A stretch of DNA of 64,000 nt from Heterodontus francisci. Taxonomy: Eukaryota. How positions within the stretch are numbered: the stretch's first letter is position 1; each line of letters begins with the position of its first letter. The DNA lies in assembly GCF_036365525.1 (NCBI RefSeq), contig NC_090382.1, positions 79,623,223 through 79,687,222 of the forward strand, written 5' to 3'. The translations under genes and the position numbers were made by a program. Below the pieces are notes generated by a model. It was not told the origin of the DNA, searched no databases, and worked only from the letters and a program-made list of their open reading frames with translations. Shown here piece by piece: positions 420 to 64,000 of the stretch.

Positions 420-3400
420 ACAGTACTCCTGATAGCAGAAATGAAGTTGTAGTATACATTAATTCAGAGAAGAAAGGAGTTTGTAGCAAGAGCAGAGTTG
501 TTTTAATGGGAGGGTTTACTTTTCCTATAGATTGGGAAGGGCAGAGTAGCTCTGGTCAGAAGGGTAATGAATTTCTTGAGTGCATTCAAGATAGTTTTCT
601 AGAACCAACAAGAGTACATGCCATACTTGACTTATTAATGAGTATTGAGGCAGACTTCTTTGTTAATCTAAAAGTAAGGGAACATTTATCTAACGGTGAT
701 CATAATATGATCATATTCAACGTTAGGTTTAAAAAGGAGAAACTTACCACAGTTACTAAATTCTAGATTTTCGTAGAGTTAACTTTAATAGAATGAGACA
801 GAGATTCATAAGATGAAACTAGTCAAAACTGTTACAAGTAAAACTACAGATGAACAGTGGGAGGTGTTCAAACAATTTAGCTTTACAGGACTAGTATATA
901 CCCCTCGGGAGAAAGAGCTCTACATATCAAATAAAACTGTCATGATTGACTAAAAAGGTGAGAGATAACAGAAAACTAAAGGAAAGAGCTTATAAAAGTG
1001 CAAAGAATAGTGTAAATCCAAGGAACTGGGAGGGAGATAAAGAACAATAAAGGAAGACAAAAAAAAAGCTGCAAAAAGGGAAATGAGGTATATCAATATT
1101 AACAGAAAAAGAGTAGTCAAGAGTAATGTGGGCCATTTAAACAGATACTATTGCAATGAAAATAAGGCAAACAATTACTTTTTGTCATTTTTTTCACAGT
1201 ACAAGAGGATAATATATCTGACATTCAAGGGAAATTAATAATAAATCAAGGACTGGAATTCGCTCAAGTTAATTTAAGCAAGAAAACAATATTAGAAAAA
1301 ATAATGGGATGAAAGACTGGCATATCCCCAGGTCCCGATGGTTTCCCCCCAGAGTTTTAAAGGAAGTATGTGAGGAAATTGCAGATGCTTTAGCTATAAT
1401 TTTCCAAAGCTCTCTCAGGAATTGTCCATTTAGGTGGGAAAATTGCAAATGTAACTTTATTATTTAAAAAAGGTGGGAAAGAGAAACAGGGAAATTATAG
1501 TCCTGTTAACCAGCCCAACATCTATTGCAGGGAAGCTTTTGGAATCTATAACTAAGGACAGCTTGATTAAGCACTTAGAAGAATTTGAGCTGATTAGAGA
1601 TAGTCAATGTGGATTTGTAAAGGCTAGATCATATATAATGAACCTAAGTGCATTTTTCGATGAAGTAACTGAAATCTTAGGGGAATATTTTATGTAGTGG
1701 TGTAGTTTATATGGACTTCCAGAAGGTATGCAGTAAGACACCTAGTTAGAAGATTGCTTAGGCAGTAGAAGACAGATTAGGGATAATGGATATCTACTTG
1801 AATTGGAAGGCAGTGACTAGTGGTGTCCCAAAGGATCGGTGATGGAGCTTCAACTATTCACTATATTTATTAATTACTTAGCACAACAGAGAGCCATAAA
1901 TCCAAGTTTGTTGATGGCAAAAAGATTGGTGATATAATAAGTATTGTAAATGGGGGCATAAAATACAAAGAGACATTGATAGACTGAGTGGGCAAAACTG
2001 TAGCCGATGGATTTCAACACAAGTAAATGTGAAGTGATCCATTTTGGACCAAAAAAGGATAGATCTCAGTATTACTTACAGTCATAGAGTCGTACAGCAT
2101 AGAAACAGGCCCTTTGGCCCACCGTGTCCATGCCGACCATAATGCCTATCTATACTAATCCCACCTGCCTGCATTAATTCCATATCCCTCTATGCCTTGC
2201 TCATTCAAGTACCTGTCCAGATGCCTCTTAAATTTTGCTACTGTTCCTGCCTCACCCACCTCCTCAGGCAGCTCATTCCAGGTACCCACTATTCTTTGTG
2301 TAAAAAATTTACCCCTTTGGTCCCCTTTAAACCTCCTCCCTCTCACCTTAAATCTATGCCCTCGAGTTTTAGTCACCCCTACCATGGGAAACAGACTCTG
2401 GCTATCTACCCTATCTATGCCTCTCATAATTTTATATACCTCTATCTTGTCCCCTCTCAGCCTCCTTCGCTCCAGGGAAAATAGACCCAGCCTATCCAAT
2501 CTCTCTTTATAACTCAAGCCCTCCAAACCAGGCAACATCCTTGTGAATCTTTTCTGCACCCTCTCTAGCTTAATCGCATCTTTCCTGTAGTGCGGCGACC
2601 AGAACTACACACAGTACTCCAAATGCGGTCTAACCAACGTTATGTACAACTGCAACATGATGTCCCAACTCTTTTACTCAATGCCTCAGCTGATGAAGGC
2701 AAGCATGCCATACACCTTCTTCACCACCATGACTACCTGTGTTGCCACTTTCAGGGAACTATGTACTTGCACCCCAAGGTCTCTCTGCTCAACAACACTC
2801 CCCAGGGCCCTGCCATTCACTGCATATGTCCTGCCCTGGTTTAACTTCCCAAAATGCATCACTTTGCACTTGTCTGCGTTAAATTCCATTTGCCAATCCC
2901 TTGCCCACTTTCCCAGTTGATCTATATCCTGTTGTAACCTTAGACAACCTTCTTCACTGTCCACTATACCACCAATTTTGGTGTCATCTGCAAACTTACT
3001 AATCATGCCCCCTACATTCACATCCAAGTCATTAATATATATGACAAACAACAGAGGGCCCAGCACCGATCCCTACGGCACACCACTGGTCACCGGCCTC
3101 CAATCTGAAAAACAACCCTCCACTACCACCCTCTGCCTCCTATCACCAAGCCAATTTTGTATCCAATTTGCTAGCTCACCCTGGATTCCATGCATTTGAG
3201 CCTTCTGGACCAGCCTACCATGCGGGACCTTGTCAAAGGCCTTGCTAAAGTCCATGTAGACAACGTCCATCGCCCTGCCCTCGTCAATCCTCTTGGTCAC
3301 CTCCTCGGAAAACTCAATCAAAATTGTGAGAGATGATTTCCCACGACAAAGTCATGTTGACTATCCCTAATCAGACCATGCCTTTCCAAATGCATATAAA

Positions 3401-4990
3401 TCCTGTCTCTCAGAATCCCTTTCAATAACTTTCCCACCACTGATGTAAGGCTCACTGGCCTGTAGTTCCCTGGCTTATCCCTGCTGCCCTTCTTAAATAA
3501 AGGCACAACATTTGAGAGTTCCTGTCTGATGCCATCGAAATTAGCCTTCCCCCAATTTAGGATTTCAACCTGAGGACCAGTCCTATCCTTTTCCATAACT
3601 ATCTTGAAGCTAATAGAGTTATGGTCACTGGTCCCAAAGTGCTCCCCCACTGACACATCAACCACCTGCCCATCCTCATTTCCTAAGAGGAGATCGAGTG
3701 TAGCCCCTTCTCTAGTAGGACCATCCACATACTGCTTCAGAAAACTATCCTGGACACACTTCACAAATTCTTCACCAACTGAACCCTTAGCACTAAGGCA
3801 GTCCCAGTCAATATTTGGGAAGTTAAAATCACCTACTATTACAACTCTATAATTCCTACACCTATCTCTGATTTCCCTACATATATGTTCCTCCACTTCC
3901 CTCTGACTATTGGGGGGTCTGTAGTATAATCACATCAAAGTGATCACCCCTTTCTTATTTCTAAGTTCTACCCATATGGCCTCGCTGGACATTCCCCCCG
4001 GGATATCCTCTCCAAGTACTGCCGTGATGTTCTCCCTAATCAATAGGGCAACTCCCCTTCCTCTCTTACCTCCAGCTCTGTCACGCCGGAAGCATCGGTA
4101 CCCCGGAACATTGAGTTGCCAGTCCTGCCCATCCCTCAACCACGTTTCCGTAATAGCTATAATATCACAATCCCATGTACTGATCCATGCTCTGAGTACA
4201 TTTGCCTTACCTGTAAGGCTTCTTGCATTGAAGTAAATGCAGTTTAGCCTACCAGATCTTCCACGTCCTGCCCCTGCCCGGCCTGCCTACCAGACTTGCT
4301 TGCTTTAACCTCTACATTTAAATAGTCAAAAACTAGCAAAAGAGATTTAGGGGTCCATACAACAGATCACTAAAATCTAGTAGGTACACAAAATAAACAA
4401 AAAGGCTAATGGAATGTTAGCCTTTCTAACTAGAGGGTTTGAAATATAAAGGGGAGGAAGTTTTGCCACACTTATACAAAGCCCTGGTTAGGTAACATTG
4501 GAATAATTTGTACAGAACCTTAGAAAGTATATGTTGGCCTGGGAAGGAGTGCAGTGCAGATTCACCAGAATGTTACCATGTTTGCAACAGTTACATTATA
4601 AAGAGAGATTACATAAACTTGGCTTCTCTTCCCTTCCCTGGAATACAAAAGACTAAGGGGCAATTTGATTTAAGAAATTGATGGGGTAGACTTTTTCACT
4701 GGTGGGGGAGTCCTGGACAAAGTGACATAACCTTAAGAGCAGAGCCAGGCCATTCAGGAGAGAAATTAAGAAACACTTCTTCATACAAAGGGTAGCAGAA
4801 GTGTGGTACTCTCTTGCACAAAAAGCAGTAGATGCTAGCTCAATTAATAATATTAAATTTGAGATTGTCTAGTAAAAATCTATCAAAGGTATGAGAGGAT
4901 ATAGAGCCAAGGCAGGTGGATGGAGTTAAAATACAGATCAGCCATGGTCTCATTGAACAGTGTGGATGGGGCAGAATGGTCTACTCCTGT
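420..4990 (+). mobile_element. Old degenerate CR1-type LINE (ORF2 APE+RT remnants), interrupted at ~2080-4318 by a younger CR1
   Basis: ORF fragments 506-766 (DWEGQ..FLECIQDSFL..ILDLL..GDHNMI) and 1473-1697 (SQCGFVKARS..NL..FFDEVT); 3' part resumes at 4319 with CR1 3' end motifs; many stops and frameshifts. Confidence 0.85.
2080..4318 (-). mobile_element. Younger CR1/HER1-like LINE, 5'-truncated, with an internal deletion
   Basis: Minus ORFs 3930-4139, 3318-3896, 3073-3321, 2686-3066, 2155-2559 give APE (GDFNFP, SDHN) and RT (YMDFSKAFDKVPH, KFADD) motifs; 3' tail near 2080-2130. Confidence 0.92.
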
Positions 4991-5244
4991 ATATTTTCTG
5001 AGTGAGCTGTATCAAAGTGAGTTTCAGTCCGTCCAGTGCCTCAGCCAGCATGCATTCTTCAAACAACATCAGATTAACTGGTCATTTACTTCAGGTTGTT
5101 TGGGGACCTTGCAGGTGCAAATTGGCTGAAATATTTGCCTACAAAATAAGATGATTTCCTATAAAGCACTTTGGAAAGGTATGAATAAATAAATGCAAGT
5201 TCTTTCTCATTAGCAACATATAAATGAAACATTGTTGAATAAGA

Positions 5245-6131
5245 AGGTTGCTGGAGTTGTGGATAGTGTGGAAGGCTGTTGTAGGTTGCAGCGGGACATT
5301 GACAGGATGCAGAGCTGGGCTGAGAAGTGGCAGATGGAGTTCAACCTGGAAAAGTGTGAAGTGATTCATTTTGGAAGGTCGAATTTGAATGCAGAATACA
5401 GGCTTAAAGACAGGATTCTTGGTAATGTGGAGGAACAGAGGGATCTTGGGGTCCATGTCCATAGATTGCTCAAAGTTGCCACCCAAGTTGATAGGGTTGT
5501 TAAGAAGGCGTATGGGGTGTTGGCTTTCATTAACAGGGGGATTGAGTTTAAGAGCCGCGAGGTTATGCTGCAGCTCTATAAAGCCCTGATTAGACCACAC
5601 TTGGAATATTGTGTTCAGTTCTGGTCGCCTCATTATAGGAAGGATGTGGAAGCTTTAGAGAGGGTGCAGAGGAGATTTACCAGGATGCTGCCTGGACTGG
5701 AGGGCATGTCTTACGAAGAAAGGTTGAGGGAGCTAGGGCTTTTCTCATTGGAGCGAAGAAGGATGAGAGGTGACTTGATAGAGGTGTACAAGATGATGAG
5801 AGGCATAGATAGAGTGGATAGCCAGAGACTTTTTCCCAGGGTGGAAAGGGCTATCACCAGGGGGCATAATTTTAAGGTGATTGGAGGAAGGTTGCGGGGA
5901 GATGTCAGAGGTAGGTTCTTTACACAGAGAGTGGTGGATGCGTGGAATGCACTGCCAGCGGTGGTAGTAGAAGCAGATATATTAGGGACATTTAAGCGAC
6001 TCTTGGATAGGTACATGGATAATAGTAGTATGAAGGGTATGTAGGCAGTTCGATCCTAGAGTAGGTTAAAGGTTCGGCACAACATCGTGGGCCGAAGGGC
6101 CTGTACTGTGCTGTACTGTTCTATGTTCTAT
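5245..6131 (+). mobile_element. Young 5'-truncated CR1/HER1 LINE (ORF2 C-terminus and 3'UTR)
   Basis: Uninterrupted ORF to 6044 (LQRDIDRMQSWAEKWQMEFN...RGRFFTQRVV); tail GGGCCGAAGGGCCTGT...TTCTATGTTCTAT; possible 6-bp TSD ATAAGA. Confidence 0.93.
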
Positions 6132-9024: not shown

Positions 9025-9151
9025 TTCTGATGAAAGGTCGTCAACCTGAAGTGTTAACTCTGTTTCTCTCCACAGATGCTGCCTGACCTGAGTATTTCCA
9101 GCATTTTCTGTTTTTGTTTCAGATTTCCAGCATCTGCAGTATTTTGCTTTT
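9025..9151 (+). mobile_element. Short Penelope-like non-autonomous element with degenerate hammerhead motif (CDKN2AIPNL intron 1)
   Basis: CTGATGA-AAGGTCGTCAACCT-GAAG..TTAACTC then CCACAGATGCTGCC..CTGAGTATTTCCAGCA shared with other copies in the window. Confidence 0.7.
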
Positions 9152-9251
9152 ATGCAAATAGAATGTAGTTCCCTTTTTAAAAAATAATTTGATTCACAGG
9201 TACGATTGGCAGAATGACCTTCTATAGTGTAACTTGGATTTATTATTTTAG

Positions 9252-10290: not shown

Positions 10291-10392
10291 GTTCAGAAGA
10301 AAGATCACAGACCTGAAATGTTAACTCTGTTTTTCTCTCCACGGGTAATGACTGACCTGTTGACTTTTTCCAGCATTTTCTGGTTTTGTTTG
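10291..10392 (+). mobile_element. Short Penelope-like element copy (degenerate hammerhead) inside a SINE remnant, intron 2
   Basis: GTTCAGAAGAAAGATCACAGACCTGAAATGTTAACTC..TTTCCAGCATTTTC. Confidence 0.6.
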
Positions 10393-12910: not shown

Positions 12911-13227
12911 GGACAGTGGCGCAGTGGTTAGCACCGCAGCCTCACAGCTCCAGGGACCTGGGTTCGATTCTGGGTACTGCCTGTGCGGAGTTTGCAAGTT
13001 CTCCCTGTGTCTGCGTGGGTTTTCGCCGGGTGCTCCGGTTTCCTCCCACATCCAAAAGACTTGCAGGTGATAGGTAAATTGGCTGTTGTAAATTGCCCCT
13101 AGTGTAGGGAGGTGATAGGGAATATGGGATTACTGTAGGGTTAGTATAAATGGGTGGTTGTTGGTCGGCACAGACTCGGTGGGCCGAAGGGCCTGTTTCA
13201 GTGCTGTATCTCTCAAAAAAAAATAAA
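12911..13227 (+). mobile_element. HE1-type tRNA-derived V-SINE
   Basis: A box GTGGCGCAGTGGTT, B box GGTTCGATTC, V-domain TGCGTGGGTTTT..GGGTGCTCCGGTTTCCTCCCACA, CR1-like tail GGGCCGAAGGGCCTGT. Confidence 0.9.
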
Positions 13228-13963
13228 CTAGAAGAGACAATGAAGTGCTAAATAAACATAAGGAGCCTCGCTGACTATTGGAGTTTACAGGGAAGTCACA
13301 TGTCTAGGTTTATGGTTGTCAAGAGTTTTGGCTTTTTGATTTTGGCTTGGACTGTTTGAATGTTCACTTGGTGTGTATCCTGCTAAGAGAGAAGCGACCC
13401 AACTCATCCTTTTCCACCTGTTTTGGAAAGTCTTCTGAGAATCCAGTGTGATAGCTGAAACCACAAATGCAGTAATTCTCCCGAAAAACCTGCAAGACTA
13501 TTCCCCGACACTCCTGAACAGAACTGCTCCGAAGGATTCCAGTGACCGCTGTCTGTGCACCAGGACGCCAGACCAGAGGCCATTTGGAACATTCCATATC
13601 TTATCCTTTTTCTTCAAGAATTGACAATAACTTCGCCAAAGTATTTTTTAAAAAGTATTTTTTTCCATTAACCGGTGTGTGCGTGTGTTAGGTTATTTTA
13701 AAAGGGTATATATATTCATACTTTCATATTTTAAACTGTGTTAATAAGCTTTGCATCTTTATTGAATAAGTCTTGTTTTATAATCAATAGTTTTGTTGTT
13801 TATTAAAGAAACCTGGTTGGCGGATTTTTTTAAATTCTGAAACTAATAGCAAGTATATAATTGGCCGTATCGGTAACTGGGTAAAACATTTAAACATACG
13901 TTGTGACTAGTGGAGTAGTGGAACTAGTAAAATACAGTGCATTCCTCCAACCTCAGTCGTAAC
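13228..13963 (+). mobile_element. LTR-retrotransposon solo LTR (3' part; 5' boundary uncertain)
   Basis: Ends in GTCGTAACA; 3' ~200 bp similar to the LTR at 43723-44619 (ATTAAAGAAACCTGGTT...ACAGTGCA..CCTCC..CCTC.GTCGTAACA). Confidence 0.65.
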
Positions 13964-15800: not shown

Positions 15801-17657
15801 ACTCCTTACCTTGTATCCTGATAATATAGTAATGAACAACTGACTTATTAGTGTCTGTTAGTGTCACAGGTTCTACCCAAGTTGACTTCTATAATCGCTT
15901 TATTATTAACGGTCCTCTTCATTGATGATACTGCCTCTGTACCAAATTAGTTTTCCTGTCATATGAAACTTATGCTTTGGCTATATCTTTTAGTAAACCA
16001 GTTCTCTTTATGTACATATCCTTCAAGCTCCAGTACCCTGTTTCTCATTTTTTAAATTAGTGTGAAAGTTTATTAATATTATGCTCCTAATGCCAGGTAT
16101 TTGATTTTTAGCCTACCTTAATGGATCACTTCTCTCAATCATGACTATGGCTATAATTCTAGTCTTTTTATTTTTGGTTTAAATATTTGCTGATTAAGCA
16201 TATTCTGATCCAATCTTGTATTCCTTTTTACATTTAAATGAAGTTTATTTTTAATTTTTAAAAAAACCTCATTTGCCAAAGTCCTCTAATTGTTTTATAC
16301 TCTGGCTTTCCACCTGAGCAGTAAAGCCAAAATCTGAATAGCAGTGACGCTAAATGAGCTTGCTTGTGTTGTTCCATTCACTAACTCATCCAAATGAGAA
16401 CCCTGTCAATAATTGTATCTTTACTAATGTCAATCCAGCTCCTTTATTCAGTTGGGACATATTAATCTTCCCAGCCAAACCTCCATGAGTGACAACCTTC
16501 ACTGATTCCAGCCCTGTGCTACCAGATTCTGTAACATTTCCCAGCCTTGCCTTGCATGAATGTGTAATAATTCCAGCTCTGTTGTGCTGTTGAGTTCAGC
16601 AACTCCCCACTAGCTCCCTTGGACTGTTGTGCTCAGTAAATTCTTCCAGCCAGTTTCTATAATTATGCCATCAATGTTTAAATACAAATATTCTAAAACA
16701 TGAAAAAAAAAATCAGTGTGATGTATTTTCCTCAACCAATAGCTGACAGAACATTCTCGTTCTCATTATTCTATCAAGGCGCAGGCTGCTGCTAGGTTGA
16801 GCCTCCTTTTAGCTTTGCAATGCAATGTTGGAAGTTATTCTTTAGGGGAATGTATTCTCCAGTGAGGATAATTATGCAAACTTCACCCTAATTATCTGCT
16901 TTTACTGTTCTTCCTGAATCAAACCAGGAAGCTGAGAGGGTGAACCACTCAGCTTGCTCTTAGAATCCCTTGGCTGGGGTAGCCCAGTGGACACTTGGCA
17001 TATTGATTTTTGCTCATATCCCTATAGGATAATTCCTCATGCCCCGTGGCAGTTTGACTGGGAAGTTCAGTGGTGTGGAAAAATTAGATCTATGCCTCAT
17101 ATGCTCGTAGCAGTATGCTGCCATCCAGTGTTTCATGATGCTAGTATTCTGTGGGCTCATTACCATCTCTGTTTCTCAGTGAAATGTTTCCTGTGGCCAA
17201 CTAAGATTCAGGATGAGGAGTTATTAATAAAAAGAAAATAGGAGCAGGAGTAAGCCATTAATCTCTGGAGCCTGTTTTCTCAATCTGTTAGATCATGGTG
17301 TCTTGCCTCCTATTTTACAACTGTGACTACACTTCAAAAGTAGTTCATTGGCTGTAAAGTTCCTTGGGATGTCATGAGGCTCATCCTTTCTGTATCTGGT
17401 ATTTGCATAGTTGCACTTGCCAGCATAGGTCACGGTGTAAAGCAGGAGCAGGAATCCTGGCTGATTTATTTTCACTCAGGCCTGAGATGCTGATGTAAGT
17501 TGTAAGCCCAAACTGCTGCCTGGCTGAGAATAACTAGCTCAGTACAGACTGGCTGTATGGCTTAGTGTTACACCATGTGATGTTTTCAGTCAACAGGGGA
17601 AATTTAAATATGTTTGGGATAAATTATTGAAGCATCAACACATGAAACTATAGAGTA

Positions 17658-17804
17658 AATAAAAGCAAGATGCTGGAAATCAAATAAAAACAAAAAAATG
17701 TTGGAAATACTCAGCAGGTCTGGCAGCATCTGTGGAGAGGGAAGCAGAGTTAATGTTTCAGGTCAGTGACCTTTCATCAGAAAATATATCAAAATATATA
17801 TTAT
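17658..17804 (-). mobile_element. Short Penelope-like element with the best-preserved hammerhead core
   Basis: Minus strand CTGATGA-A-AGGTC-ACT-GACCT-GAAAC at 17780-17755; 13-bp TSD AAACTATAGAGTA at 17645-17657 and 17805-17817. Confidence 0.75.
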
Positions 17805-18426
17805 AAACTATAGAGTAGTTGGGTACAGGTTTAGCACCCCTTCCCTTATCTATTTCTAAATGGGGGCCAAAAGTTCGGAAAGGAGGGAATGAAAACACAG
17901 CAAGAATATTGATACTCGACTGCTATTGTTGACTTCCTAGTGATCAGCTCAGAGCATTATTAACTGAGACCGAACAACAATCAGTCCATGCACCAGGGAG
18001 AAATTAAAAGGATTTAGTATGTTAAAAAGTAAACACTCACCTCTTCTCACCTATCCAAGCAATGAAATAATTAATTTTGACTATTGACCAACTGTGAGAA
18101 TATTTGAGTTTACATCAAAGGAACTTGCCACAGGCGAAATGTCCTTGATTTGTGGCAGGGGTGTGGGGTGGTGAGCAGTGATAAGCTGGGATACATAATG
18201 CTAGCTGCCTATTTTTCAGGTAACCTCTCAACTATATGCCATGTAATTGTAGTGAGGCAGAACTCTGTGGCAACGAAGATGTATTCAATGTAGAATTGAG
18301 CGACCTACATCATAACAATTGTTGACAGTAAATATGGTTTAAAATCAGGCTGTTCAAAGTTCACTTAAAGTACATTATCAGAAGCAAGCAGCAGTTCATC
18401 TAAGTACCTGAGACCACAAAGACCAA

Positions 18427-19244
18427 GGGTTGGATTTTCACTTTGGGGATAGGAAACGCTTTTGATATTGTTTCCGGGTCTTGAACCTGGCCCCAGGGAG
18501 AAACAGTCACTCTTTGGCATTTTCATGGAAACACCCCCTTAATTGCATGGAGAAAGATTCCCAGTTCAATTAAGGGCAGTTGGCAGGAGGGCTCTCAAAG
18601 CTGGAGGGCCAGAGACCTTGCAGCTTGAGAGGAGCAGCAGGCTGCAGTAAAGAGTAAGTAACTGAGAGGGTGCTTCAAAGTGGAGGCAGTGAGGCACTGT
18701 CTCTCAAACGTTTTTCAAAAACAAGAGAGTGTGGGTGGAAATCCCTCTACAGGGTGGCCTTTGGCTGCCCCAGGCAGGCAGAGAGGGTCGATAGGCTTGT
18801 CTGGAGTGCTGCCCTACTAGCAACCCTAACCCCCACAGCCTGTTGCTGGCTGCATGCTTAGAGGCAGTTAAACTGCCCCTTGTCGTGTCAGGAAACTGGA
18901 GGCCCACTGGAAAATCCCAGTCAGCCTCCTTTGATTCTGGTTAATAGGGCTCTTAATGAGTGTTCTGGTGAAAGGTCACAGATATGAAATATTAACTCAG
19001 TTTCGCTTTCCACAGATGCTGCCAGACCTGCTGCATATTTCCAGCAATTTCTGTTTTTATTTCTTAATGAGTGTAATTGGCTACCTGCCTTGTGGAGACA
19101 GGTAGCCCTACCAGCCATGAACCTGCCTTGACAAAAATGGCCAGCACCAGGAACAGGGTCAGGAAACTGGCCAGCTGCCGCTGGTATTTTTGGGCCCCAT
19201 CCGCCTCTGTTTATGACCTAGGTGGGGCTTGAAAATTCAGTCCC
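18427..19244. mobile_element. Non-autonomous DNA transposon, PIF/Harbinger-like
   Basis: Imperfect TIRs GGGTTGGATTTT / AAAATTCAGTCCC; GC-rich interior resembling 25230-25847 and 55704-56457. Confidence 0.55.
18964..19061 (+). mobile_element. Short Penelope-like element nested in the Harbinger-like element
   Basis: 13-bp TSD TCTTAATGAGTGT at 18951-18963 and 19062-19074; starts at degenerate core CTGGTGAAAGGTC. Confidence 0.75.
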
Positions 19245-19719: not shown

Positions 19720-21060
19720 TAAAATCATATAGAAAATGCCACAATAAACTCAAAATTGAAGATTCAGGGTAAGTACAGAGAATGGACAAGAGACTGGTTG
19801 AAGGGTATAAAAACAGGCAGAGTAGTTAAATCAGCACGAAGGGTGGGAAAAGTCCTGAGTGGGATGCCTCAGTGCTCAGTGATGGGACAACCACTGATTC
19901 TAATTTACAAAAATGACCTCAACACAAATTTACAGATGAGATACCAAACAAGGTGGGAAGTGAAAATGGACGAGGAATTTCACTACAGAAATGGCAAGTT
20001 GTTAAAGTAGGCAGAAATATAATGTTCTACATGCAGAAAAGTAAAACAGATGGCACACCTACTCCAACAATGGTCTTGAGTTAGCTATGGATGAAGCTGA
20101 AAGATACCTAGGAATTTTAGTAGATAATGCTAAATACATCCAACCAATACTGAGCAATGATGGTGGAGGCAGATTCAATCATGGATTTCAAAAGGGAATT
20201 GGATAATTATTGAAGAGAAAAAGTTTGTAGGGTTATGGAGAAAAGGCAGGGGAGTGACATTAGCTGAGTAGCTCTTTCAGAGAGCTGGCATGGACACAAC
20301 AGGCTGAATGGCCTCCTTCTGTGCTGTAGCCATTCTATGATTCTAAGCCAACAAGATGTTGAATTAAAAGCAAAATACTGCAGATGCTGGAAAATCTGAA
20401 ATCAAAACAAGAAATGCTGGAAATACTCAGCAGGTCTGGCAGCATCTGTGGAGAGAGAAGCAGAGTTAACGTTTCAGGTCAGTGACCTGAAGAAGGGTCA
20501 CTGACCTGAAATGTTAACTCTGCTTCTCTCTCCACAGATGCTGCCAGACCTGCTATTTCCAGCAAGATGTTGAATTAGCTCGAACAGAAATGCAAATCAG
20601 AGAAGGTAATGATTAACTTTGTGATGTGGTCTGACTGTACCTTGAATATCACATGCATTTCTGATCACCAAGAAATGCAAGTGCAAAGTGCTTTAAGGTT
20701 AGTCCCCATTGTTAGGAGAAAAGATCGAAGAAAGCTGGGCTTTTCAGCCTGGAATCAAGGCAATCAACAGGTGATCTTAGACGTGTTATGGGTTATGAAT
20801 AGATGGAAATGGGTAAAGAAAAAGTTTACCCAAAAAATAATTTTAAACTGCAAGAGTAGAACTTGGAGAGACGTGTTCAGACAACAGAAGTGTACTTTTA
20901 AGACTGATGCCAAAAAATATTTCTTCCCACAGGATGATCAATGTGTGGAATAAACTTCCAGTTAGAGTAGCAGAGGGACAAACCCTGGAATCATTTAAGA
21001 AACAATCCAATACTACACCAGGTTGATGTTAGGATCTTTTAGATGGATGAATCAAGATAG
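19720..21060 (+). mobile_element. Ancient degenerate CR1-group LINE with later insertions
   Basis: SGMPQCSVMGQPLILIYKNDL (GVPQGSVLGP-like) in ORF 19756-20010; FFPQ 3' motif in ORF 20609-20953. Confidence 0.55.
20367..20562. mobile_element. Self-inverted (fold-back) Penelope-like element with hammerhead core
   Basis: Two inverted arms meeting at ~20487; CTGAAGA-AGGGTC-ACT-GACCT-GAAA on + at 20487-20511; 15-bp TSD CAAGATGTTGAATTA at 20352-20366 and 20563-20577. Confidence 0.8.
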
Positions 21061-25847: not shown

Positions 25848-25964
25848 AAAGTGCTTGACAACCAATGAAGTACTTTTGAATAGGAAACAACGTTGTAATG
25901 TAGAAAATGCTGGTGCCAATTTGTGCACAGTAAGTCCCACAACACAGCAGTGAGTTTTAGTTAT

Positions 25965-27872
25965 TTTTATTCTTTAATGGGATGTGGGAGTCACTGGCAA
26001 TGCCAGCATTTATTGCCCATCCCTAACTGTCCTTGAGGAGGTGGTGGCGAGCCGTCTTCTTGAACAGCTACAGTCCATGTGTAGGTACAACCACATTGCT
26101 GTTAGCGAGTTCCAGGATTTTGACCCAGCGATAGCAAAGGAACGGTAAGATATTTCCATTTATTGTCAGCCTGGTGTGTGACTTGGAGGGGAATTTGGAG
26201 GTGGAGGTGGAGGTGGTCGTGTTCCCAGGTGCCTGCGGCCCTTGTTCTTCTAGTTGGTGGAGATTGTGGGTTTGGAAGGTTCTGCTGTAGGAGCCTTGGT
26301 GAGTTGCTGCAATGCATCTTGGGAGATGGTACACACTGCTCCCACTGTGCGCCTGTGATGGAAGAAGTGAACGTTTAAGGTGGTGGATGTGGCGCTAATC
26401 AAGCAGGCTGCTTTGTCCTAGATGGCATTGAGCTTCTTGAGCTGCACCCATCCAGGCACGTAGGGAGTATCCATCACATTCCTAACTTGTGCCTTGTAGA
26501 CAGACAGGCTTTGGGGAGTCTGGAGGGGAGTTACTTGCCGCAGAGTTCCCAGCCTCTGACCAGCTCTTGTCGCCACGGTATTTATGTGGCTAGTCCAATT
26601 AAGCTTCTGGTCAATGGTAGTCTCCAGGATGTTGATGGTGGGGGATGAGAGTATGGCATCAAGGCTGCGGTTGTTGGAGGTCAATCATCTCAGCTCCAGG
26701 ACATCACTGCAGGAGTTCCTCAGGGCAGTGTCCTTGGCCCAACCCTCTTCAGTTGTTTCATCAATGACCTTCCTTCAATCATTAGGTCAGAAGTGGGGAT
26801 ATTCGCTGATGATTGCACAATGTTCAGCACCATTCGTGACTCCTCAGATACTGAAACAGTCCGTGTAGAAATGCAGCAAGACCTGGACAATATCCAGGCT
26901 TGGGCTGATAAGTGGCAAGTAACATTCGTGCCACACAAGTGCCAGGCAATGATCATCTGCAACAAGAGAGAATCTAACCATTTCCCCTTGACATTCAATG
27001 GCATTACAATCACTGAATCCCCTATCAACATCCTGGGGACCATTGACCAGAAACTGAACTGGAGTAGCCATATAAATACCGTGGCTACAAGAGGTCAGAG
27101 GCTAGGAATCTTGCAGCGCGTAACTCACCTCCTGACTCCCCAAAGCCTGTCCACCATCTACAAGGCCCAAGTCAGGAGTGTGATGGAATACTCTCCACTT
27201 GTCTGGATGGGTGCAGCTCCAACAACACTCAAGAAGCTCGACACTATCCAGGCCAAAGCAGCCCGCTTGATTGTCACACCATCCGCAAACATTCACTCCC
27301 TCCACCACCAATGCACAGTGGCAGCAGTGTGTACCATCTACAAGATGCACTGCAGCAGCACACCAAGGCTCCTCAGACAGCACCTTCCAAACCTCTACCA
27401 CAAGGACAGCAGATGCATGGGAACATCACCACCTGCAAGTTCCTCTGAAAGCCACACACCATCCTGACTTGGAACTATATCGCCGTTCCTTCACGGTCAC
27501 TGGGCCAAAATCCTGGAACTCCCTTCCTAACAGTACTGTGGGTGTACCTACCCCACACGGACTGCAGCCATTCAAGAAGGCAGCTCACCACCACCTTCTC
27601 AAGGGCAATTAGGGATGGCCAATAAATGCTGGCCTAGCCAGCGACGCCCACATCCCATGAATGAATAAAAAAATTCAGCAATGGTAATGCTGTTGAATGT
27701 CATGGGGAGGTAGTTAGATTCTCTCTTGTTGGAGATGGTCACTGCCTGGAACTTGTTTGGTGTGAATGTTACTTGCCACTTATCAGCCCAAGCCTGAATG
27801 TTGTCCAGGTCTCGCTACATGTAGCCACAGACTGCTCATTTATCTGATGAGTTGTGAATAGAACTGAACACC
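25965..27872 (-). mobile_element. CR1-group LINE (second family), minus copy split by a same-family plus copy
   Basis: Minus ORF 26418-26684 IDQKLNWTSHINTVATRAGQRLG; continues at 27673-27872. Confidence 0.8.
26647..27672 (+). mobile_element. CR1-group LINE (second family), plus copy, RT C-terminus and poly-A tail
   Basis: GVPQGSVLGP-coding, ORF 26793-27467 IFADD..IQAWADKWQVTF; tail CACATCCCATGAATGAATAAAAAAA. Confidence 0.88.
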
Positions 27873-31070: not shown

Positions 31071-32029
31071 ATGCCCTTCTACTACTGGAGTTAAGGTACA
31101 TAATTAAAACAGGATTACAGGAGCTGCCCAGTTTGAGGGGGTGGAAGAAAGGAGGAGTCAGATTATGGGCAATTAACTGGAAAAGGTGCACAGATAATGG
31201 GAAAATTTCAAACCAATGATTAACATACTAAATAATATATCCTTGGGCAGAAGCAATATTGCAGAAATAGTTGGAAGCTGGGGAGATGAATAATTAAAAT
31301 TGGAGCAAAACATGGGTAAAAAGGCATGTGACAAATCTAGGGCAAATACAAAAGAAAAATCAAGCACAATATAGAAAAATAGAAGTAAAAATGATTAGAT
31401 GGGTATGAAGAAAAGATGGCAAGTAAGTTTTTTTTTTAAAGAAAGGATTTTGTAACAAAAACAGTTAAAGAAAGGGTAGGGCCAATTAAGAGATTAAAAA
31501 AAGAAAACGGGGGATAAAAGAATACCAATGAGTACTTTGCCTCTGTTTTCACAAAAAGACAGACAATGGAATGAAAGGATACACGAAGATATGATGGAGC
31601 AACTGGATAGTATAACTATAGGTAAGGAAGTAGTACTGAAAAAAGTTGATGAAACTCAAAAGTGGAAAAGGCATCAATCAGCTCTGATGGCACACACCTC
31701 AGAATGTTAAGGGACTCGGAGAGAAGACTACAACCTTTCAACCATCCTTGGATATGAAGGTTGGAATGGGGGCGGCCAATGTAACACCTTTGTTCAAGAG
31801 GGAGAAAAGGATAGTCAGGTTAACTACAGACCAGTCACTCCAACATCAGCAGTGGATAAAGGTTCTAGGAGCTTAAAATATAGGAAGAAATACTTGCTTA
31901 GAAAGACACTCTCCACCTTAAGAACTTCCAGCATGGATTTATAAAAGATAAATCATGTCTCACAAACTTTAAATACTGTTCTTTGATGGATTAATGAAGC
32001 ATATTAATAGAGAATGCAATGAATGTTAT

Positions 32030-32290
32030 GCTTGGGAACACCACCACCTGCAGGTTCCTCTCCAAGCCACACACCATCCTGACTTGGAACTATATTGCTG
32101 TTCCTTCACTGGCGTGGGGTCAAAATCCTAGAACTCCCTTCCTAACAGTACTGTGGGTGTACCTACCCCACACGGACTGCAGCCGTTCAAGAAGGCAGCT
32201 CACCACCACCTTCTCAAGGGCAATTAGGGATGGGCAATAAATGCTGGCCTTGCCAGCGACGCTCACATCCCATGAACAAATAAAAAAAAA
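32030..32290 (+). mobile_element. 3' end of second-family LINE inside an older degenerate CR1 (~31300-32580)
   Basis: Same tail as 27420-27672. Confidence 0.75.
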
Positions 32291-32690: not shown

Positions 32691-33177
32691 CTGAAAATAG
32701 AAAACACTGCAGGAAATTTTGTTTCTCACAGTAAGTAGTTGATGACACTATGTGCCAACTGCAGCTGGCTTATTCCTTTGATCTTGGAATACATTGCACA
32801 AACAAATGTTGGTTATTGGCCGGGCAGCAACAGTAACCAACATAGTAATATAAGAACATAACAGGAGCAGGAGCAGACCATATGGCCCCTCAAGTCTGCT
32901 CCATCATTCAATACGATCATGGCTGATCTTCTGCCTCAACTGCACTTTCCCGCCCACTCCCCATATCCCTTGATTCCCCGAGAGATCAAAAATCTGTCCA
33001 TTTCAGCCTTGTATGTACTCAACAATGGAGCATCCACAATCCTCTGGGGTAGACAATTCCAAAGATTCAAAAGCTTTTCAGTGTCTACCTTATCAAACCC
33101 CCTTCAGAATGTTTCAATGAGATCACTTCTCATTCTTCTAAACTCCAGAGAGGTACAGGCCCAATCTACTCAGCCTC

Positions 33178-33488
33178 CAAAATCTAGAACTAGGGGGTCA
33201 CTGTTTAAAAATAACAGGTCGCCCTTCTAAGACAGAGATGAGGAGAATTCTTTTCTCTCAGAGGATCGTGAGTCTTTGGAATTCTCTTCCTCAAAAGGCA
33301 CTGGAAGCAGTCTTTGAATATTTATAAGGCAGAGGTAGATAGATTCTTGATAAGCAAGGGGGTGAAAGGTTATTGGGGTAGGCGGGAATGTGGAGTAATC
33401 TGTTCAGCCATGAACTTATTGAATGGTGGAGCAGGCTCGAGGGGCCTAGTGGCCTACTCCTGCTTCTAATTTGTATGTTCATATGTTA
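33178..33488 (+). mobile_element. CR1 3' fragment nested antisense in the CR1 above
   Basis: TCTAGAACTAGGGGGTCAC..TTTTCTCTCAGAGG..TATGTTCATATGTT; similar to 39783-40268. Confidence 0.75.
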
Positions 33489-33736
33489 GCCTATAGCCCA
33501 TCATAGAAGAAGCCTCTTATCCTAGGAACAAATCTAGTGAACCTTCACTGTACCGCCTCCAAGGCAAGTACATCCTTCATTAAGCATGGAAACCAAAACT
33601 GTGCACAGTACACTGCATTTGGTACCAGCAAAGCCCTGTGCAACTGCAGCAAGACTTGCTTATTCTTGTACTCTATTCTGCTTGCAATAAAGGCCAACAT
33701 CTCATCTGCCTTCCTAATTGCTTGCTGTACTTGCAT

Positions 33737-34050
33737 TAGAGCATGGGCTACCTGACCCGAACCAGACGACATGTGTCGGGTTCGGGTCAGGTCAGAGCGT
33801 TCTTCCAGGTCCGGCATTCGGGCTCGGGTCAGGTAGGACACAGTGACAGCCAGGAAGTCAAGACTCCAGACTCCGCACAGGTCTGCAGTGAGCGATTCCA
33901 TCCAAGGTAGAGCACAACCTCTTTAATATAATCAACTTCATTCCGGTGGTCGGGTCGGGTGCAGGAAAAAATCAAAGGACTCGGGCCGGGTCGGATGTGG
34001 TTCTGTCAGGCTCTGGTTGGGTTTCAACTGCAGACCCGAGCAGGCCTTTA
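33737..34050. mobile_element. hAT-like MITE
   Basis: 8-bp TSD ACTTGCAT / ACCTGCAT (1 mismatch); imperfect ends TAGAGCATG / CAGGCCTTTA; multiple subterminal CCCGA/TCGGG motifs. Confidence 0.7.
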
Positions 34051-50970: not shown

Positions 50971-51351
50971 CCGGGAAGATGAAGGGCTCCAGCCCCTGTA
51001 CTTTAATCGGAGTAAATAATGATTGTTGTTTAAATTACACGGACATTACACGCCCGGTTTATTCCTGATTTGTTTTAACCTGCCCTTAATAAATAAATAC
51101 ATCCTGTTCAAGAGTTGACCAAATTCTGGGAGTGACGTTTGAGAGATGCCTGTTTAAATGTCCAGAAACAACGTGCAGACAATGAGGGAGTGATTTTCAC
51201 TCCTGATCATCTGAGTCAGTTTGCAGCTGTGTCGTGTTAATTCTGAAAGGCTGCGTGGGTTAAGTGCGGAGCAAAAAAGCGGAAAGAGGTGACTAATTTA
51301 TCAAACTTTTCCCCTGCACCTTCTCTAAAGGTGGAGTATTAAAAAGCAGAG

Positions 51352-51481
51352 GCAAAACAAAAAGTGCTGGAAATACTCAGCAGTATTTGTGGAGAGAGAT
51401 GCAGAGTTGACATTTCAGAACCTGCTGAGTATTTCCAGCACTTTTTGTTTCAGATTTCCAGCATCTGCACTATTTTGCTGC
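51352..51481. mobile_element. Self-inverted Penelope-like element, hammerhead portion lost
   Basis: AAAAAGTGCTGGAAATACTCAGCAG / CTGCTGAGTATTTCCAGCACTTTTT inverted; near-TSD TAAAAAGCAGAG / TAAAAGGCAGAG. Confidence 0.65.
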
Positions 51482-52082
51482 TAAAAGGCAGAGCCCTGGG
51501 GAAGGCAAATTTAAATGAATCAACTCCTGTTGTGTGTCTGGCTTCCTGTTCGGATCCGCGTTCTATAACGCGGGTTTGGGAACTCCAAATTCCATTGTTT
51601 GTAGTAACCAAGTGAGTTGCTATGGGAGCGGCTGAGCTCCAAGTTATGAACACTGAGAACAGAAAGACGAGATCAAAACCATTCACAGCAGGACGATGGG
51701 TGTGGGATCAACACGTGCCTCTTGAATAAGAGTTGTGTTTACCTCCGGTCGGATTGAAAGCAGAGCAAATATTGCACCCGCTGGGTTTTAGCCACCAACC
51801 GAATGGAATTTGTTTGCTCTACTAAAGAGTGATTAAAAAAACACAACTTCACGAATCATCGCAGGATGGATGCGTCTGAGCACCACTTTAAACTAATTCT
51901 GGATTTTCAATGATTGGACTCATTCTTGAGTAGGTAGGTTATGTAGAAAGGTCGTTTTACTCGAATGCAGATATTTTATATTTAGGGGAGTTAGCAAGAA
52001 TTAATTCATTTAAAATACACTGTAGCATCTGTCGTGCATCTACCAAATCACAACCTGTACTGCAAAGGATTGGTATGAATCA

Positions 52083-61609: not shown

Positions 61610-63399
61610 TGAATTATTATTAATTTGGGGGAAAACTGGAGACTGAGCAGGTAGAAAATGTAATTTTAAAGTATTCGGGTGGATTTATTAAAAGTGAAAT
61701 AAGTTTTCCCTAATGGATCAGTGGGTAAATGCACCATGTGACATGGTACTGAGTCATGTAAAACAGGAATGTCCTAGGTTTAGCATTTGGTCTATGTTAT
61801 CAAATGTCAACTGGGACTAGGTGGTGGGTGCTCCGATATTCCTTAGTTCCCTTGGGCTAGAGAAGAGAAATATTAGACCGGGCTTCTGCTTGCTGGAAGT
61901 AATGCTGTTGCTGAGGATAGATTTGGGCCTCTTGGAATCGCAACCTACAATTCTCTACACTAATCCCTCACGAAGTATCCTGGAGAAGATGGGCATGTGT
62001 TTTTGTAAAACCCCCTCAGCAACAGCAGTGAATTAAGCAATTGGTGACAAGTAAGTTTGGCGTCTGGCATTGAACTTGGACATTGTGAACATCAATGTGA
62101 CTACTATACTGCAAATTGTTCGCTGTGGGCCTTTCTGCCACACTGAAGGTGGATGCCTGTTATATAGCTGAGGAGGAAACCGTTGAGACTTGTAAGGATA
62201 GCTAATGAAGGTCCGATCTAGAGGTTGGCAATGAGAGTTGGATTGCACATTGCTGATGCTGAAGCCTTGCACCTCTGACTGATGGAACCACTGTCAGTCG
62301 GTTATAGTGTCTGTCGTGTATTTACAAAAATGGTCACAGTGCACTTATATTTTATGGTGACTTATGTATTGTCATCCAGACCTCATTAATTAGCATTTTA
62401 GCTGAGGATATTTTTGGATTAGTAGTTCCAGAATGGCCTGAAGGTTGTTTGTGTGCAAGCATGGATTCCACTGATATCAACGACTCTAAGGTTGCCATGG
62501 TACTCATATTTGGAATGAATAGGGAAAGATTACTTCCTCTGGTTTTGGAGAAGTGGTCAGGTCTTCATCACTTTAAAAATATCACTGGGTAGAGAAGTTA
62601 GAAGAAATTTCTTTATGCAGAAAGTTGTTAGAGCATAAAATGCTTTATCACAGGCAATGGTTGAGACAGAGACAATTCCATGTTTTAAGGAAAAAAATAG
62701 TATAAATACTTGAAACTGGAAAATAGAAGGATGTTAGGAAAGAATGGTGTGATTAACTTCAGTTTGCTCAGCATAGATACAATGGGCCGAATGGCCTCAT
62801 GGAGCTGAAAACTTCTATGGTGTCATAAAATACTTGGCCAATCTTTGGGTTTTATGAGGGAAGCTGGAAAATGCACCAAATGCAATTTGTGTCATTTTAT
62901 TCCTTATAATACAACTTAAAATACACTCTCATAGTGATTAATTTTCATAAATCACAGTTGAAGCCATTAGTTTTCAGTTTTCACAGAAAAGCAAAGTGAA
63001 CTGTGGAATGTGATCCCAAACAATAATAAAAATTGTGAATTCCAAAGAAATAAAAAGGAATTTAACTTATTCAGTTGGTCATAGACCTTTATTCAGGGCT
63101 GATTTTCAGTTGTAAGTTGCTTTTTCAAAGGTTGGTTCTTTGCAGGTTGCGTCAACCTTTTCAAAGCTGTTCATTAGCTTTTCTGAGTTTAGTAGGTTAT
63201 GCTTCTTGTGAGGAGTTTCTGACCAGCAAAAGAGCTCAAAGCTTTGTTTATCTGTTGATAAACAGCAACAATTGACTATCCTTCTTGGGGTGGCAAATGG
63301 AGTTGGCTCCAAGATGACATGAATGACGACGGAAGATTAGAATTCAGTCAACTCTCCTTGGTAGACTCTAATTTGCAAACTGAGCCATTCAGGTAGTTA

Positions 63400-63880
63400 A
63401 AACAAAAGCAACATACTCCGGATACTGGAAATCTGCACGACACGTTGGCACAGTGGTTAGCACCGGAGCCTCACAGCTCCAGCGACCCGGGTTCAATTCT
63501 GGGTACTGCCTGTGTGGAGTTTGCAAGTTCTCCCTATGTCTGCGTGGGTTTTCTCCGGGTGCTCCGGTTTCCTCCCACAAGCCAAAAGACTTGCAGGTTG
63601 GTAGGTAAATTGGCCATTCTAAATTTGCCACTAATATAGGTAGGTGGTAGTGAAATATAGGGACAGGTGGGGATGTTTGGTAGGAATATGGGATTAGTGT
63701 AGGATTAGTATAAATGGGTGGTTGATGGTCGGCACAGACTCGGTGGGCCGAAGGGCTTGTTTCAGTGCTGTATCTCTAAACTAAACTAAACTAAACTAAA
63801 CTAAAATGTTGGAAATGCTCAGCTGGCCGGGCATCTGTGGAGAGATAAACCGAGTTAACATTTCAGGTCTTTGATCTTCC
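63400..63880 (-). mobile_element. Short Penelope-like element split by an HE1 SINE
   Basis: AAAAGCAACATACT..GATACTGGAAATCTG before, TGTTGGAAATGCTCAGC..GCATCTGTGGAGAGA..GAGTTAACATTTCAGGTC after the SINE. Confidence 0.65.
63436..63805 (+). mobile_element. HE1-type V-SINE, (CTAAA)n tail variant
   Basis: Same head and V-domain as other copies; longer middle; CTAAA repeats at ~63776-63805. Confidence 0.9.
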
Positions 63881-64000
63881 ATTTGAACTTCAAACCACAG
63901 GTCTTCAAATCTCCAGGACACTGTTCATAATTGACCAGACAACCTGGCAGTTAAAGAGATCTGGATGGGTAGATCTGTCACAGGGGATTGAGATTCTTCC

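What the first reader, a model, noticed from the sequence alone, without database searches (positions are those of the whole stretch)
17645..17817. Hammerhead-ribozyme-headed ~100-200 bp mobile element family (7 copies, several with 13-15 bp TSDs)
Seen: a short non-coding repeat recurs at 9025, 10291, 17658, 18964, 20367, 51352 and 63400. Aligning copies by eye gives a 5' consensus (GUU)CUGA(U/A)GA-A-(A/G)GGUC-ACU-GACCU-GAAA-CG-UU-AAC. This contains both conserved hammerhead boxes (CUGAnGA and GAAA), a 5-bp stem II, a palindromic AACGUU in place of stem III and a possible short GUU/AAC stem I. Three copies have exact 13-15 bp TSDs, and in 18964-19061 the insertion starts right at the core. Known: minimal type I hammerheads with palindromic, dimer-dependent stem III occur in Penelope-like element terminal repeats. 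Inference: this is a non-autonomous, self-cleaving, retrozyme-like element mobilised in trans by a Penelope-like RT/GIY-YIG protein. No copy here is fully intact (CpG decay of the stem III CG). I cannot tell whether this shark family is already catalogued.
Basis: partly seen in the sequence, partly recalled or inferred. Interest (0 to 1): 0.8.

Follow-up and report, generated by a model that had tools for sequence, protein, structure and literature searches.

The report
Stub ends of shark Penelope retrotransposon
The short ribozyme-bearing repeats are not a separate mini-element but the stub ends left by a very abundant, still-intact Penelope-type jumping gene, a known class; their regular ends hint at how such elements copy themselves.

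Summary
The repeat, the hammerhead-like core and the three exact 13-15 bp TSDs are real. The interpretation needs correcting. These are not a separate non-autonomous retrozyme family. They are 5'-truncated pseudo-LTR ends of an autonomous Neptune-type Penelope-like element (PLE). The same genome holds intact 3,296-bp tandem units with a 916-aa RT + GIY-YIG ORF, and 30,916 exact copies of the young hammerhead region. Short and long copies share the same variants. Minimal hammerheads in PLE ends, solo truncated copies, inverted ends and the 'tail' are all published. This scan also reported such stubs in two other shark genomes. Three regularities are new to my searches. (1) 5' ends pile up at the hammerhead's first base (50 of 99), below a TATA-like box, and none falls at the cleavage site. 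(2) 3' ends fall at two sites about 36 nt apart. (3) Inverted insertions nearly always pair one long with one short end (26 of 27; older copies 28 of 30), with TSDs of about 14 bp. Best model, inferred: a dimeric RT primes from both nicks near the capped RNA end and runs off it. Ribozyme activity and the transcription start are untested.

The parts
17645..17657 (.). Left copy of 13-bp target-site duplication
   Evidence: exact repeat with 17805-17817
17658..17782 (-). Solo PLE pseudo-LTR stub, element positions -2 to about +133 (tail-containing 'long' 3' end), older subfamily
   Evidence: 82% identity to the intact unit
17748..17782 (-). Minimal type I hammerhead: CUGAUGA at 17780-17774, 5-bp stem II, GAAA; stem III palindrome broken by CpG decay (ACGU to ACAU); predicted cut between 17752 and 17751 if intact
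17783..17804 (.). About 22 nt of AT-rich filler between the element's 5' end and the TSD; origin unexplained
   Evidence: outside the match
17805..17817 (.). Right copy of 13-bp TSD
9025..9153 (+). Solo stub -2 to +132 (long end); no exact TSD
10291..10391 (+). Solo stub -3 to +98 (short end), decayed
18951..19074 (+). Solo stub about -2 to +97 (short end), insert 18964-19061 between exact 13-bp TSDs
20352..20577 (.). Head-to-head inverted insertion: left arm (-) about +133 to +10, right arm (+) +1 to about +82; exact 15-bp TSD; long + short ends
51340..51493 (.). Head-to-head inverted insertion: left arm +93 to about +20, right arm +62 to +127; 12-bp TSD with 1 mismatch; short + long ends; lacks the CUGAnGA box
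63398..63888 (-). One old stub split in two (63398-63435 = +136 to +99; 63804-63888 = +85 to about -4) by a younger SINE-like insertion at about 63446-63803

Best explanation
The repeats are dead-on-arrival by-products of an autonomous Neptune-type Penelope-like retrotransposon (3,296-bp unit, 916-aa RT + Zn-linker + GIY-YIG ORF). SHOWN: short copies are the pseudo-LTR/5'-leader segment (about -4 to +96 or +133) of that element; 5' ends cluster at the hammerhead's first base; 3' ends fall at two sites about 36 nt apart; inverted insertions join one long and one short end within a TSD of about 14 bp. INFERRED: (1) a TATA-like box at -34 and an initiator with A at -4 start the RNA exactly at hammerhead stem I; (2) a dimeric protein nicks both strands about 14 bp apart and primes reverse transcription at two internal sites near the RNA 5' end, one site per nick, as in the Anolis Poseidon element in vitro; (3) RT reaches the capped end after only 100-137 nt, and if this short cDNA is joined in directly the result is a solo stub, or a head-to-head pair when both nicks extend; (4) longer and tandem copies need a switch to the repeated 3' end of the RNA, a tandem read-through RNA or a circle. 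Stubs lack the upstream promoter and the ORF, so they should not propagate. The hammerhead probably cleaves weakly and as a dimer, and cleavage is not what makes the stubs.
For: Upstream continuity in 22 of 60 loci, into GIY-YIG coding sequence. 27 of 147 scored genomic matches have the full 924-codon open frame. 13 full ORFs in 8 fetched loci, 3,296-bp period, hammerhead at each junction. RVT_1 E=1.2e-5 and GIY-YIG E=0.0018, both below Pfam gathering. Linker cysteines C782/C787 invariant and C790 near-invariant among 58 aligned homologues. Young 5' ends: 50 of 99 in -10..+10, 6 in -30..-11, 1 in +11..+20, 0 in +21..+33; older: 30 of 63 in -10..+10. At event level 23 of 42 direct insertions are solo stubs. 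Genome-wide exact counts: 30,916 for +1..+42, 13,838 for -21..+21, 1,253 for +113..+154. 3' ends: 22 short and 20 long among 42 direct insertions. Inverted: 26 of 27 long+short, binomial p=4e-7, TSD 10-19 bp with 14 of 26 at 14 bp, against 0 of 300 control pairs above 9 bp; older set 29 of 31, or 28 of 30 without one edge row. TATA-like TTATAA/TTAAAA near -34 and YYANWYY-like start at -4 in young and most older long copies (consensus motifs recalled). Short and long copies diverge equally (0.7% vs 0.6% young; 8.3% vs 8.9% older) with the same variant mix. N-terminal 1-345 homodimer model: score 0.46, best of 3 controls 0.02, runs agree in >=11% of contacts, pLDDT >=61, alignment not used; the mark was reached by 21 of 30 solved pairs and 0 of 23 single chains in microbes, and 17 of 29 pairs (animals 7 of 16; only 1 of 7 without an older solved relative) and 0 of 30 singles in eukaryotes. 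PMC11167929: both strands cut and extended, two internal RT starts define the tail, dimer predicted, hammerhead cleavage not needed in vitro.
Against: The transcription start was not measured: only Logan contigs of guessed-RNA runs were available, and they cannot show ends. The -4 stop is not absolute: of 41 copies spanning the pLTR-ORF junction 22 run on past -35, only 4 end at -6..-3, and 15 end at +11..+112, one of them at +30, the cleavage site. All 8 full-length loci carry upstream sequence to -34 or beyond. The sequence before -2 also looks like a 3' splice site, and in D. virilis an intron ends at helix I. PMC11167929 saw no difference in RT start between top and bottom strands in vitro, so a fixed one-site-per-nick pairing is not shown there. 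Exceptions: one short+short (L203, no TSD) and three inverted events with an outer end elsewhere; one short+short and one long+long among older events, two borderline ends (+114, +121) counted as long. Both arms of inverted pairs are counted in the 99. Samples come from the first 36 Mb of contig C1 (junction set: first 180 Mb). The dimer pass may reflect likeness to solved folds or a generic long helix.
Confidence: 0.8

Rival explanations
1. A separate non-autonomous, self-cleaving retrozyme-like element mobilised in trans by the PLE protein.
For: Stubs outnumber ORF-bearing junctions about 25-fold, have a sharp 5' boundary and TSDs. Non-LTR retrozymes are reported as PLE derivatives, including in one chondrichthyan (bioRxiv 10.64898/2026.07.22.740005).
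Against: No private variants; same two 3' ends as long copies; no promoter-like sequence upstream; no tandem arrays of the short unit among mapped insertions; 0 of 99 starts at the cut site.
Confidence: 0.07
2. Same PLE origin, but the 5' boundary is a splice acceptor: an intron in the pseudo-LTR ends at -3 and stubs come from spliced RNA with a very short first exon.
For: Branch-point-like, pyrimidine-rich, YAG sequence precedes -2 in most subfamilies; -2 is the commonest single end (12 of 99); the D. virilis intron ends at helix I (intron 46 nt after the start).
Against: No upstream exon remnant in 37 copies ending at -10..+1 (2 chance-like short matches); no splice joint ending at -3 among the 15 joints shown of 79 (contigs show presence only); the TATA-like box sits about 30 nt above -4.
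Confidence: 0.12
3. Same PLE origin, but RT terminates there because the stem II hairpin refolds in the new cDNA and dislodges the enzyme; no RNA end is involved.
For: Many inverted junctions use the stem II palindrome; 14 of 99 ends lie at +1..+10; many long copies pass straight through.
Against: The hard edge is on the upstream side (-4 to -7), where the initiator-like motif lies, not at the 3' foot of the hairpin (0 ends at +21..+27); the motif is only about -8 kcal/mol.
Confidence: 0.12
4. Stubs are copies of hammerhead-cleaved or circularised RNA.
For: No sense-strand AATAAA/ATTAAA in the unit; upstream partial units are closer to their own last unit than to other loci (L188: 0 of 2,590 nt vs 5-25; L093: 2 vs 4-17; not in L097), which a circle would explain for long tandems; model proposed in PMC4209133.
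Against: Cleaved templates would start at +30 (0 of 99 young, 2 of 63 older at +28..+33; 1 of 41); a circle has no stop at -4.
Confidence: 0.05
5. A DNA-transposon MITE.
For: Some copies are palindromic.
Against: Variable TSD, unequal arms, 5' truncation, continuity with an RT ORF.
Confidence: 0.01

Closest known systems
Neptune-clade EN+ Penelope-like elements (Craig et al. 2021, PMC8557442; passages seen)
   Same: Single ORF with RT, CX2-5CxxC linker and C-terminal GIY-YIG; partial tandems; inverted 5'-truncated copy; 30-40 bp tail; hammerhead in the pseudo-LTR.
   Different: Clade assigned here by the linker motif only, no tree with reference elements; no microsatellite bias is obvious at the junctions printed (not counted). 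Whether this family is in Repbase or Dfam could not be checked.
Minimal hammerheads of metazoan PLEs (Cervera and De la Pena 2014, PMC4209133; parts 1-2 of 4 read)
   Same: Short helix I (4 bp), extra nucleotide between 9 and 10.1, palindromic 15.2-16.2, G10.1-C11.1 in the young subfamily, mostly solo motifs from truncated PLEs, pairs on opposite strands.
   Different: Helix II is 5 bp (7-8 bp in the Schistosoma families). The youngest, most abundant subfamily has CCGA (U4C); older ones have CUGA with A-U or G-U at 10.1-11.1.
Poseidon of Anolis carolinensis, PAc (Frangieh et al. 2024, PMC11167929; parts 1-2 of 4 read)
   Same: Two internal RT starts bounding the tail; both strands cut; predicted dimer through an N-terminal helix; no RNA ends at the ribozyme cut site.
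   Different: Poseidon lacks the Zn linker; its ORF starts inside the hammerhead, here 168 nt downstream of C3. The text read does not treat inverted insertions, TSDs or a 5' pile-up.
Adineta vaga Penelope families (Arkhipova et al. 2013, PMC3846280; passages seen)
   Same: Inverted pLTR, tail optionally on one of the inverted pLTRs, 8-10 bp TSD, TATA plus Inr-like motif in the pLTR, solo pLTRs.
   Different: That paper explains palindromes by self-priming on an antisense template and TSD-less solo pLTRs by recombination or deletion; here many solos have TSDs and the long+short rule is counted.
Non-LTR retrozymes (PMC7229834, listing only; bioRxiv 10.64898/2026.07.22.740005, part 1 of 5 and passages)
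   Same: Type I hammerhead, non-coding, related to PLE pLTRs.
   Different: Defined as tandem repeats with a hammerhead per unit; these stubs are dispersed solos or inverted pairs ending at RT start sites.

Membership tests
EN+ Penelope-like element | Single ORF with PLE-type RT and C-terminal GIY-YIG endonuclease | tested here: met
   916-aa ORF; RVT_1 E=1.2e-5, GIY-YIG E=0.0018, both below gathering; DKG and YIDD motifs; 1,114 homologues among 8,000 scored candidates
EN+ Penelope-like element | Tandem or partial-tandem units forming pseudo-LTRs, with 5'-truncated upstream copy | tested here: met
   8 of 8 full-length loci; 3,296-bp period
EN+ Penelope-like element | Inverted 5' copies and optional 30-40 bp tail | tested here: met
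   30 of 72 non-edge young insertions inverted; 3' ends near +96 or +133
Neptune clade | CX2-5CxxC linker between RT and EN | tested here: met
   C782-x4-C787-x2-C790, conserved in the 58-sequence alignment
Neptune clade | RT phylogeny groups with reference Neptune elements | not tested
   No named reference sequences were at hand
Minimal type I hammerhead of PLEs | Core CUGAnGA ... GAAA ... NUH with helix II and short helix I | tested here: met
   Young: CCGAAGA in 76 of 91, GAAACGUU in 88 of 91; older: CUGAUGA or CUGAAGA in 33 of 54; hammerhead fold within 0.1 kcal/mol of the MFE for the young form. U4C reported as tolerated though weaker (PMC9608096, PMC3088659; passages)
Minimal type I hammerhead of PLEs | Compensatory covariation in helix II | tested here: inconclusive
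   Pair 10.1-11.1 is G-U 27, A-U 17, G-C 8, unpaired 2 of 54 older copies (few independent events). Inner pairs invariant in sources; changes at +12 leave the partner unchanged in nearly all of the 100 listed of 1,033. An apparently compensated stem proved to be one old insertion in a duplicated region
Minimal type I hammerhead of PLEs | Self-cleavage, dimer-dependent | not testable with these tools
   The double-hammerhead fold (-13.9 kcal/mol) is less stable than a competing duplex (-25.0) in cofolding; needs a bench assay
Non-LTR retrozyme | Tandem repeats of a non-coding unit, each with a hammerhead | tested here: not met
   The tandems found are of the 3.3-kb coding unit; short copies are solo or inverted
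Non-LTR retrozyme | Abundant circular RNA | not testable with these tools
   Only contigs available
Non-autonomous PLE family | Own lineage with diagnostic variants | tested here: not met
   36 short vs 38 long young and 21 vs 17 older copies share variants over +1..+45; small sample, short region

The most novel reading that the evidence does not exclude
The stubs are a genome-scale record of the PLE reaction. A dimer primes from both staggered nicks with a fixed assignment of one RT start site per nick (54 of 57 inverted insertions are long+short). Each RT first makes a retrovirus-like 'strong-stop' cDNA to a capped end that coincides with hammerhead stem I, and a transfer to the repeated 3' end of the RNA yields long and tandem copies. 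The most successful young lineage did this with a weakened U4C ribozyme, so the hammerhead may act as a slow, dimer-gated decapping or 3'-end switch rather than as the maker of the template.
Probability: 0.4. Interest if true: 0.65.

Novelty: new member of a known kind. Interest (0 to 1): 0.4.

Why it matters
As a 'new ribozyme element' it is ordinary: minimal hammerheads in PLE ends and their solo remnants are described across metazoans. Its value is as material. The PLE transposition cycle and the role of its hammerhead are open questions, with one Poseidon element reconstituted in the papers read. This genome offers an intact, very young Neptune-type element with tens of thousands of near-identical ends. 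They give sharp, testable rules (start at -4, RT starts near +96 and +133, a 14-bp stagger, long+short pairing) that would explain solo, inverted and tandem PLE structures with one mechanism.

Tried and rejected
Rfam scan of the window: no hammerhead match; the miRNA-like hits are the inverted pairs. First core pattern was mis-spaced and found nothing (corrected); the pattern was one position short and is uninformative (redone). Stubs as cleavage products: rejected, no pile-up at +30. CUGA as mere CpG decay of CCGA: rejected for older subfamilies, since CUGA dominates (T at +2 in 40 of 54) while the mirror product CCAA occurs once, and it goes with different alleles at +5 and +9. Covariation by double-mutant search: 169 hits, many the two commonest transitions; the recurring compensated stem is one decayed insertion in a multi-copy region (10 of 13 loci fetched), so it was not counted. 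RNA evidence: 4 of 22 listed runs laid, all contigs, 3 only guessed to be RNA; depth peaks over +3..+103 as copy number would predict, so nothing follows on expression or RNA ends. Clusters of 5' ends near -296, -305 and -360 are alignment or cap artefacts and were treated as 'long'. tblastn found no piece of the ORF in the window. Searches for prior print: hammerhead + Penelope + shark gave 1 review (listing only); searches found no paper on a long+short rule, a strong-stop step or this shark family. Most subscription papers, Repbase and Dfam are not searchable here; Lunse et al. (PMC5785218) was not held; the bioRxiv supplements, which list chondrichthyan retrozyme families, were not seen and may bear on novelty.

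Full report
Numbering: C3 of the hammerhead core is +1; the predicted cut lies after +29.

1. Observation. The seven loci are real and homologous. The core pattern occurs at 5 window sites with at most 3 mismatches, against 0.04 expected. The three exact TSDs are confirmed at 13, 13 and 15 bp, and a fourth has 12 bp with one mismatch. Two loci (20367, 51352) are head-to-head inverted pairs, 51352 lacks the first core box, and 63400 is the far end of a copy split by a SINE-like insertion. Rfam has no hammerhead match.

2. What it belongs to. The window lies in a 6.01-Gb genome; the closest named protein relative is from a bamboo shark (71% identity over 76% of the query). One exact 34-nt older hammerhead variant occurs 1,824 times, with 0 for the reversed control. 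Of 60 loci, 22 continue upstream into shared sequence of up to 1.27 kb that encodes a Cys linker and a GIY-YIG domain. Searching with that protein gave 126,345 candidates; 147 were scored and 27 of them have a 924-codon open frame. Eight such loci hold 13 full ORFs in 3,296-bp units with a hammerhead at each junction. The 916-aa product has RT, a CX4CXXC linker and GIY-YIG, the Neptune layout given in PMC8557442. Exact counts show the scale: 16,174 and 24,154 for young and older downstream anchors, 30,916 for the young hammerhead, 13,838 when 21 upstream bases are required, and 1,253 for the junction into the ORF. The window copies are 72-95% identical to the young unit and belong to older subfamilies.

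3. Ends. I sampled copies by an anchor downstream of the ribozyme, so that 5' ends were not preselected: the first 100 of 16,174 young matches (99 after removing one identical context) and 63 anchors from 60 loci around the first older matches. 5' ends fall in -10..+10 in 50 of 99 young and 30 of 63 older copies; in young copies 6 fall in -30..-11, 1 in +11..+20 and none in +21..+33. Both arms of inverted pairs are counted there; by event, 23 of 42 direct insertions are solo stubs, 17 are longer and 2 start after +10. 3' ends are bimodal, near +96 and near +133 (22 and 20 of 42 direct insertions). This is the 30-40 bp PLE tail, which PMC11167929 ties to two internal RT start sites. Of 77 unique young events 5 touched a locus edge and were set aside; of 30 inverted events 3 had an outer end elsewhere, and 26 of the remaining 27 join one long and one short end (p=4e-7) with TSDs of 10-19 bp, 14 of them exactly 14 bp. 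Control flank pairs never exceeded 9 bp in 300 trials. An older set gave 29 of 31, or 28 of 30 without an edge row, and includes both window pairs. Tail asymmetry is described qualitatively in PMC3846280 and PMC8557442; I found no count or mechanism for it.

4. Why ends pile up at -4. Long copies show a TATA-like hexamer near -34 and an initiator-like motif with A at -4, in the young and most older variants (consensus motifs recalled). The A at -4 is also the first base of the 4-bp helix I. No exon remnants precede the breakpoints. Short and long copies carry the same variants and divergence. The simplest reading is run-off of RT at the capped RNA end, from start sites only 100-137 nt downstream, with a few bases trimmed on joining. 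Against it: the start site is unmeasured; 22 of 41 junction-spanning copies run on past -35, 4 end at -6..-3 and 15 end at +11..+112; and the same stretch resembles a splice acceptor, as in D. virilis. Long and tandem copies therefore need a template switch, a tandem read-through RNA or a circle. Upstream partial units usually match their own last unit better than other loci, and the unit has no sense poly(A) signal; this fits any of the three.

5. The ribozyme. It matches the metazoan minimal hammerhead of PMC4209133: short helix I, extra base before helix II, palindromic ACGU, GUU triplet. The young subfamily has CCGAAGA (76 of 91) and G10.1-C11.1 (86 of 91); older ones have CUGAUGA or CUGAAGA with G-U, A-U or G-C. 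U4C is reported as active but weaker in a viroid (the primary paper was seen only as cited). Covariation is inconclusive. The monomer fold is at the energy minimum for the young form, but the double hammerhead competes with a more stable duplex. Activity is untested. In PAc, cleavage needs the protein and is dispensable for insertion in vitro.

6. Dimer. Two copies of residues 1-345 fold as a dimer through antiparallel helices 77-106: score 0.46, best of 3 controls 0.02, at least 11% of contacts shared between runs, pLDDT at least 61, alignment not used. The mark was reached by 21 of 30 solved pairs and 0 of 23 single chains in microbes, and by 17 of 29 pairs (animals 7 of 16; 1 of 7 without an older solved relative) and 0 of 30 singles in eukaryotes. 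This supports, and does not show, the dimer also predicted for PAc.

7. Verdict. A new member of a known kind: stub ends of an intact, recently very active Neptune-type PLE. Confidence is about 0.95 in the identity, about 0.65 each in the start-site run-off and in paired priming by a dimer. Two earlier notes of this scan reached a similar reading in other shark genomes; I saw them after forming mine and did not check their windows. Papers: PMC4209133 and PMC11167929, parts 1-2 of 4 (plus passages of the latter); bioRxiv 10.64898/2026.07.22.740005, part 1 of 5 and passages, supplements not seen; PMC8557442, PMC3846280, PMC6765202, PMC2377424, PMC9608096 and PMC3088659, passages only; others as search listings.

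Noticed in passing
window 63446-63803, also 12917-13230 and 44670-44975: Three copies of a 300-350 bp SINE-like repeat (81-94% alike) with tRNA A/B-box-like motifs by eye and a pentanucleotide tail; the one at 63446 splits a PLE stub and so is younger than it. ARAGORN calls no tRNA.
   Followed up: partly
window 50544-50791: GC-rich tandem array of about 20-nt units rich in GC-box-like motifs, resembling a CpG-island promoter.
   Followed up: no
window 2093-6129, 32841-37556, 39781-40266, 52091-54873: Many mutually homologous old fragments (64-83% alike) of one or more long interspersed repeats; not identified.
   Followed up: no
window 25958-27733, 32028-32290, 40555-40697, 41698-42163: Another repeat family with nested and inverted copies, up to 92% alike.
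   Followed up: no
L281-L290 (G000 contigs C28, C39, C126, C140, C160, C194, C202, C206, C290): A region of at least 6 kb present in 10 fetched copies (90-100% alike) that carries one decayed PLE with an altered but fully paired stem II; a large duplicated unit or giant element of unknown kind.
   Followed up: partly
L091 4780-4813 (G000:C2:92976779): A tandem array with four full ORFs and 0 differences between the three units compared begins at -34, right at the TATA-like box; a likely very recent insertion.
   Followed up: partly
window 17658-17680 and L002, L003, L005, L007, L015, L016, L030: A recurring deletion of about 10 nt inside the tail between short direct repeats; a subfamily mark or recurrent slippage near the RT start (these loci were picked by likeness to this copy).
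   Followed up: no
L170: One inverted insertion whose second arm ends at +34, close to the ribozyme cut site, inside a 16-bp TSD; single case.
   Followed up: partly
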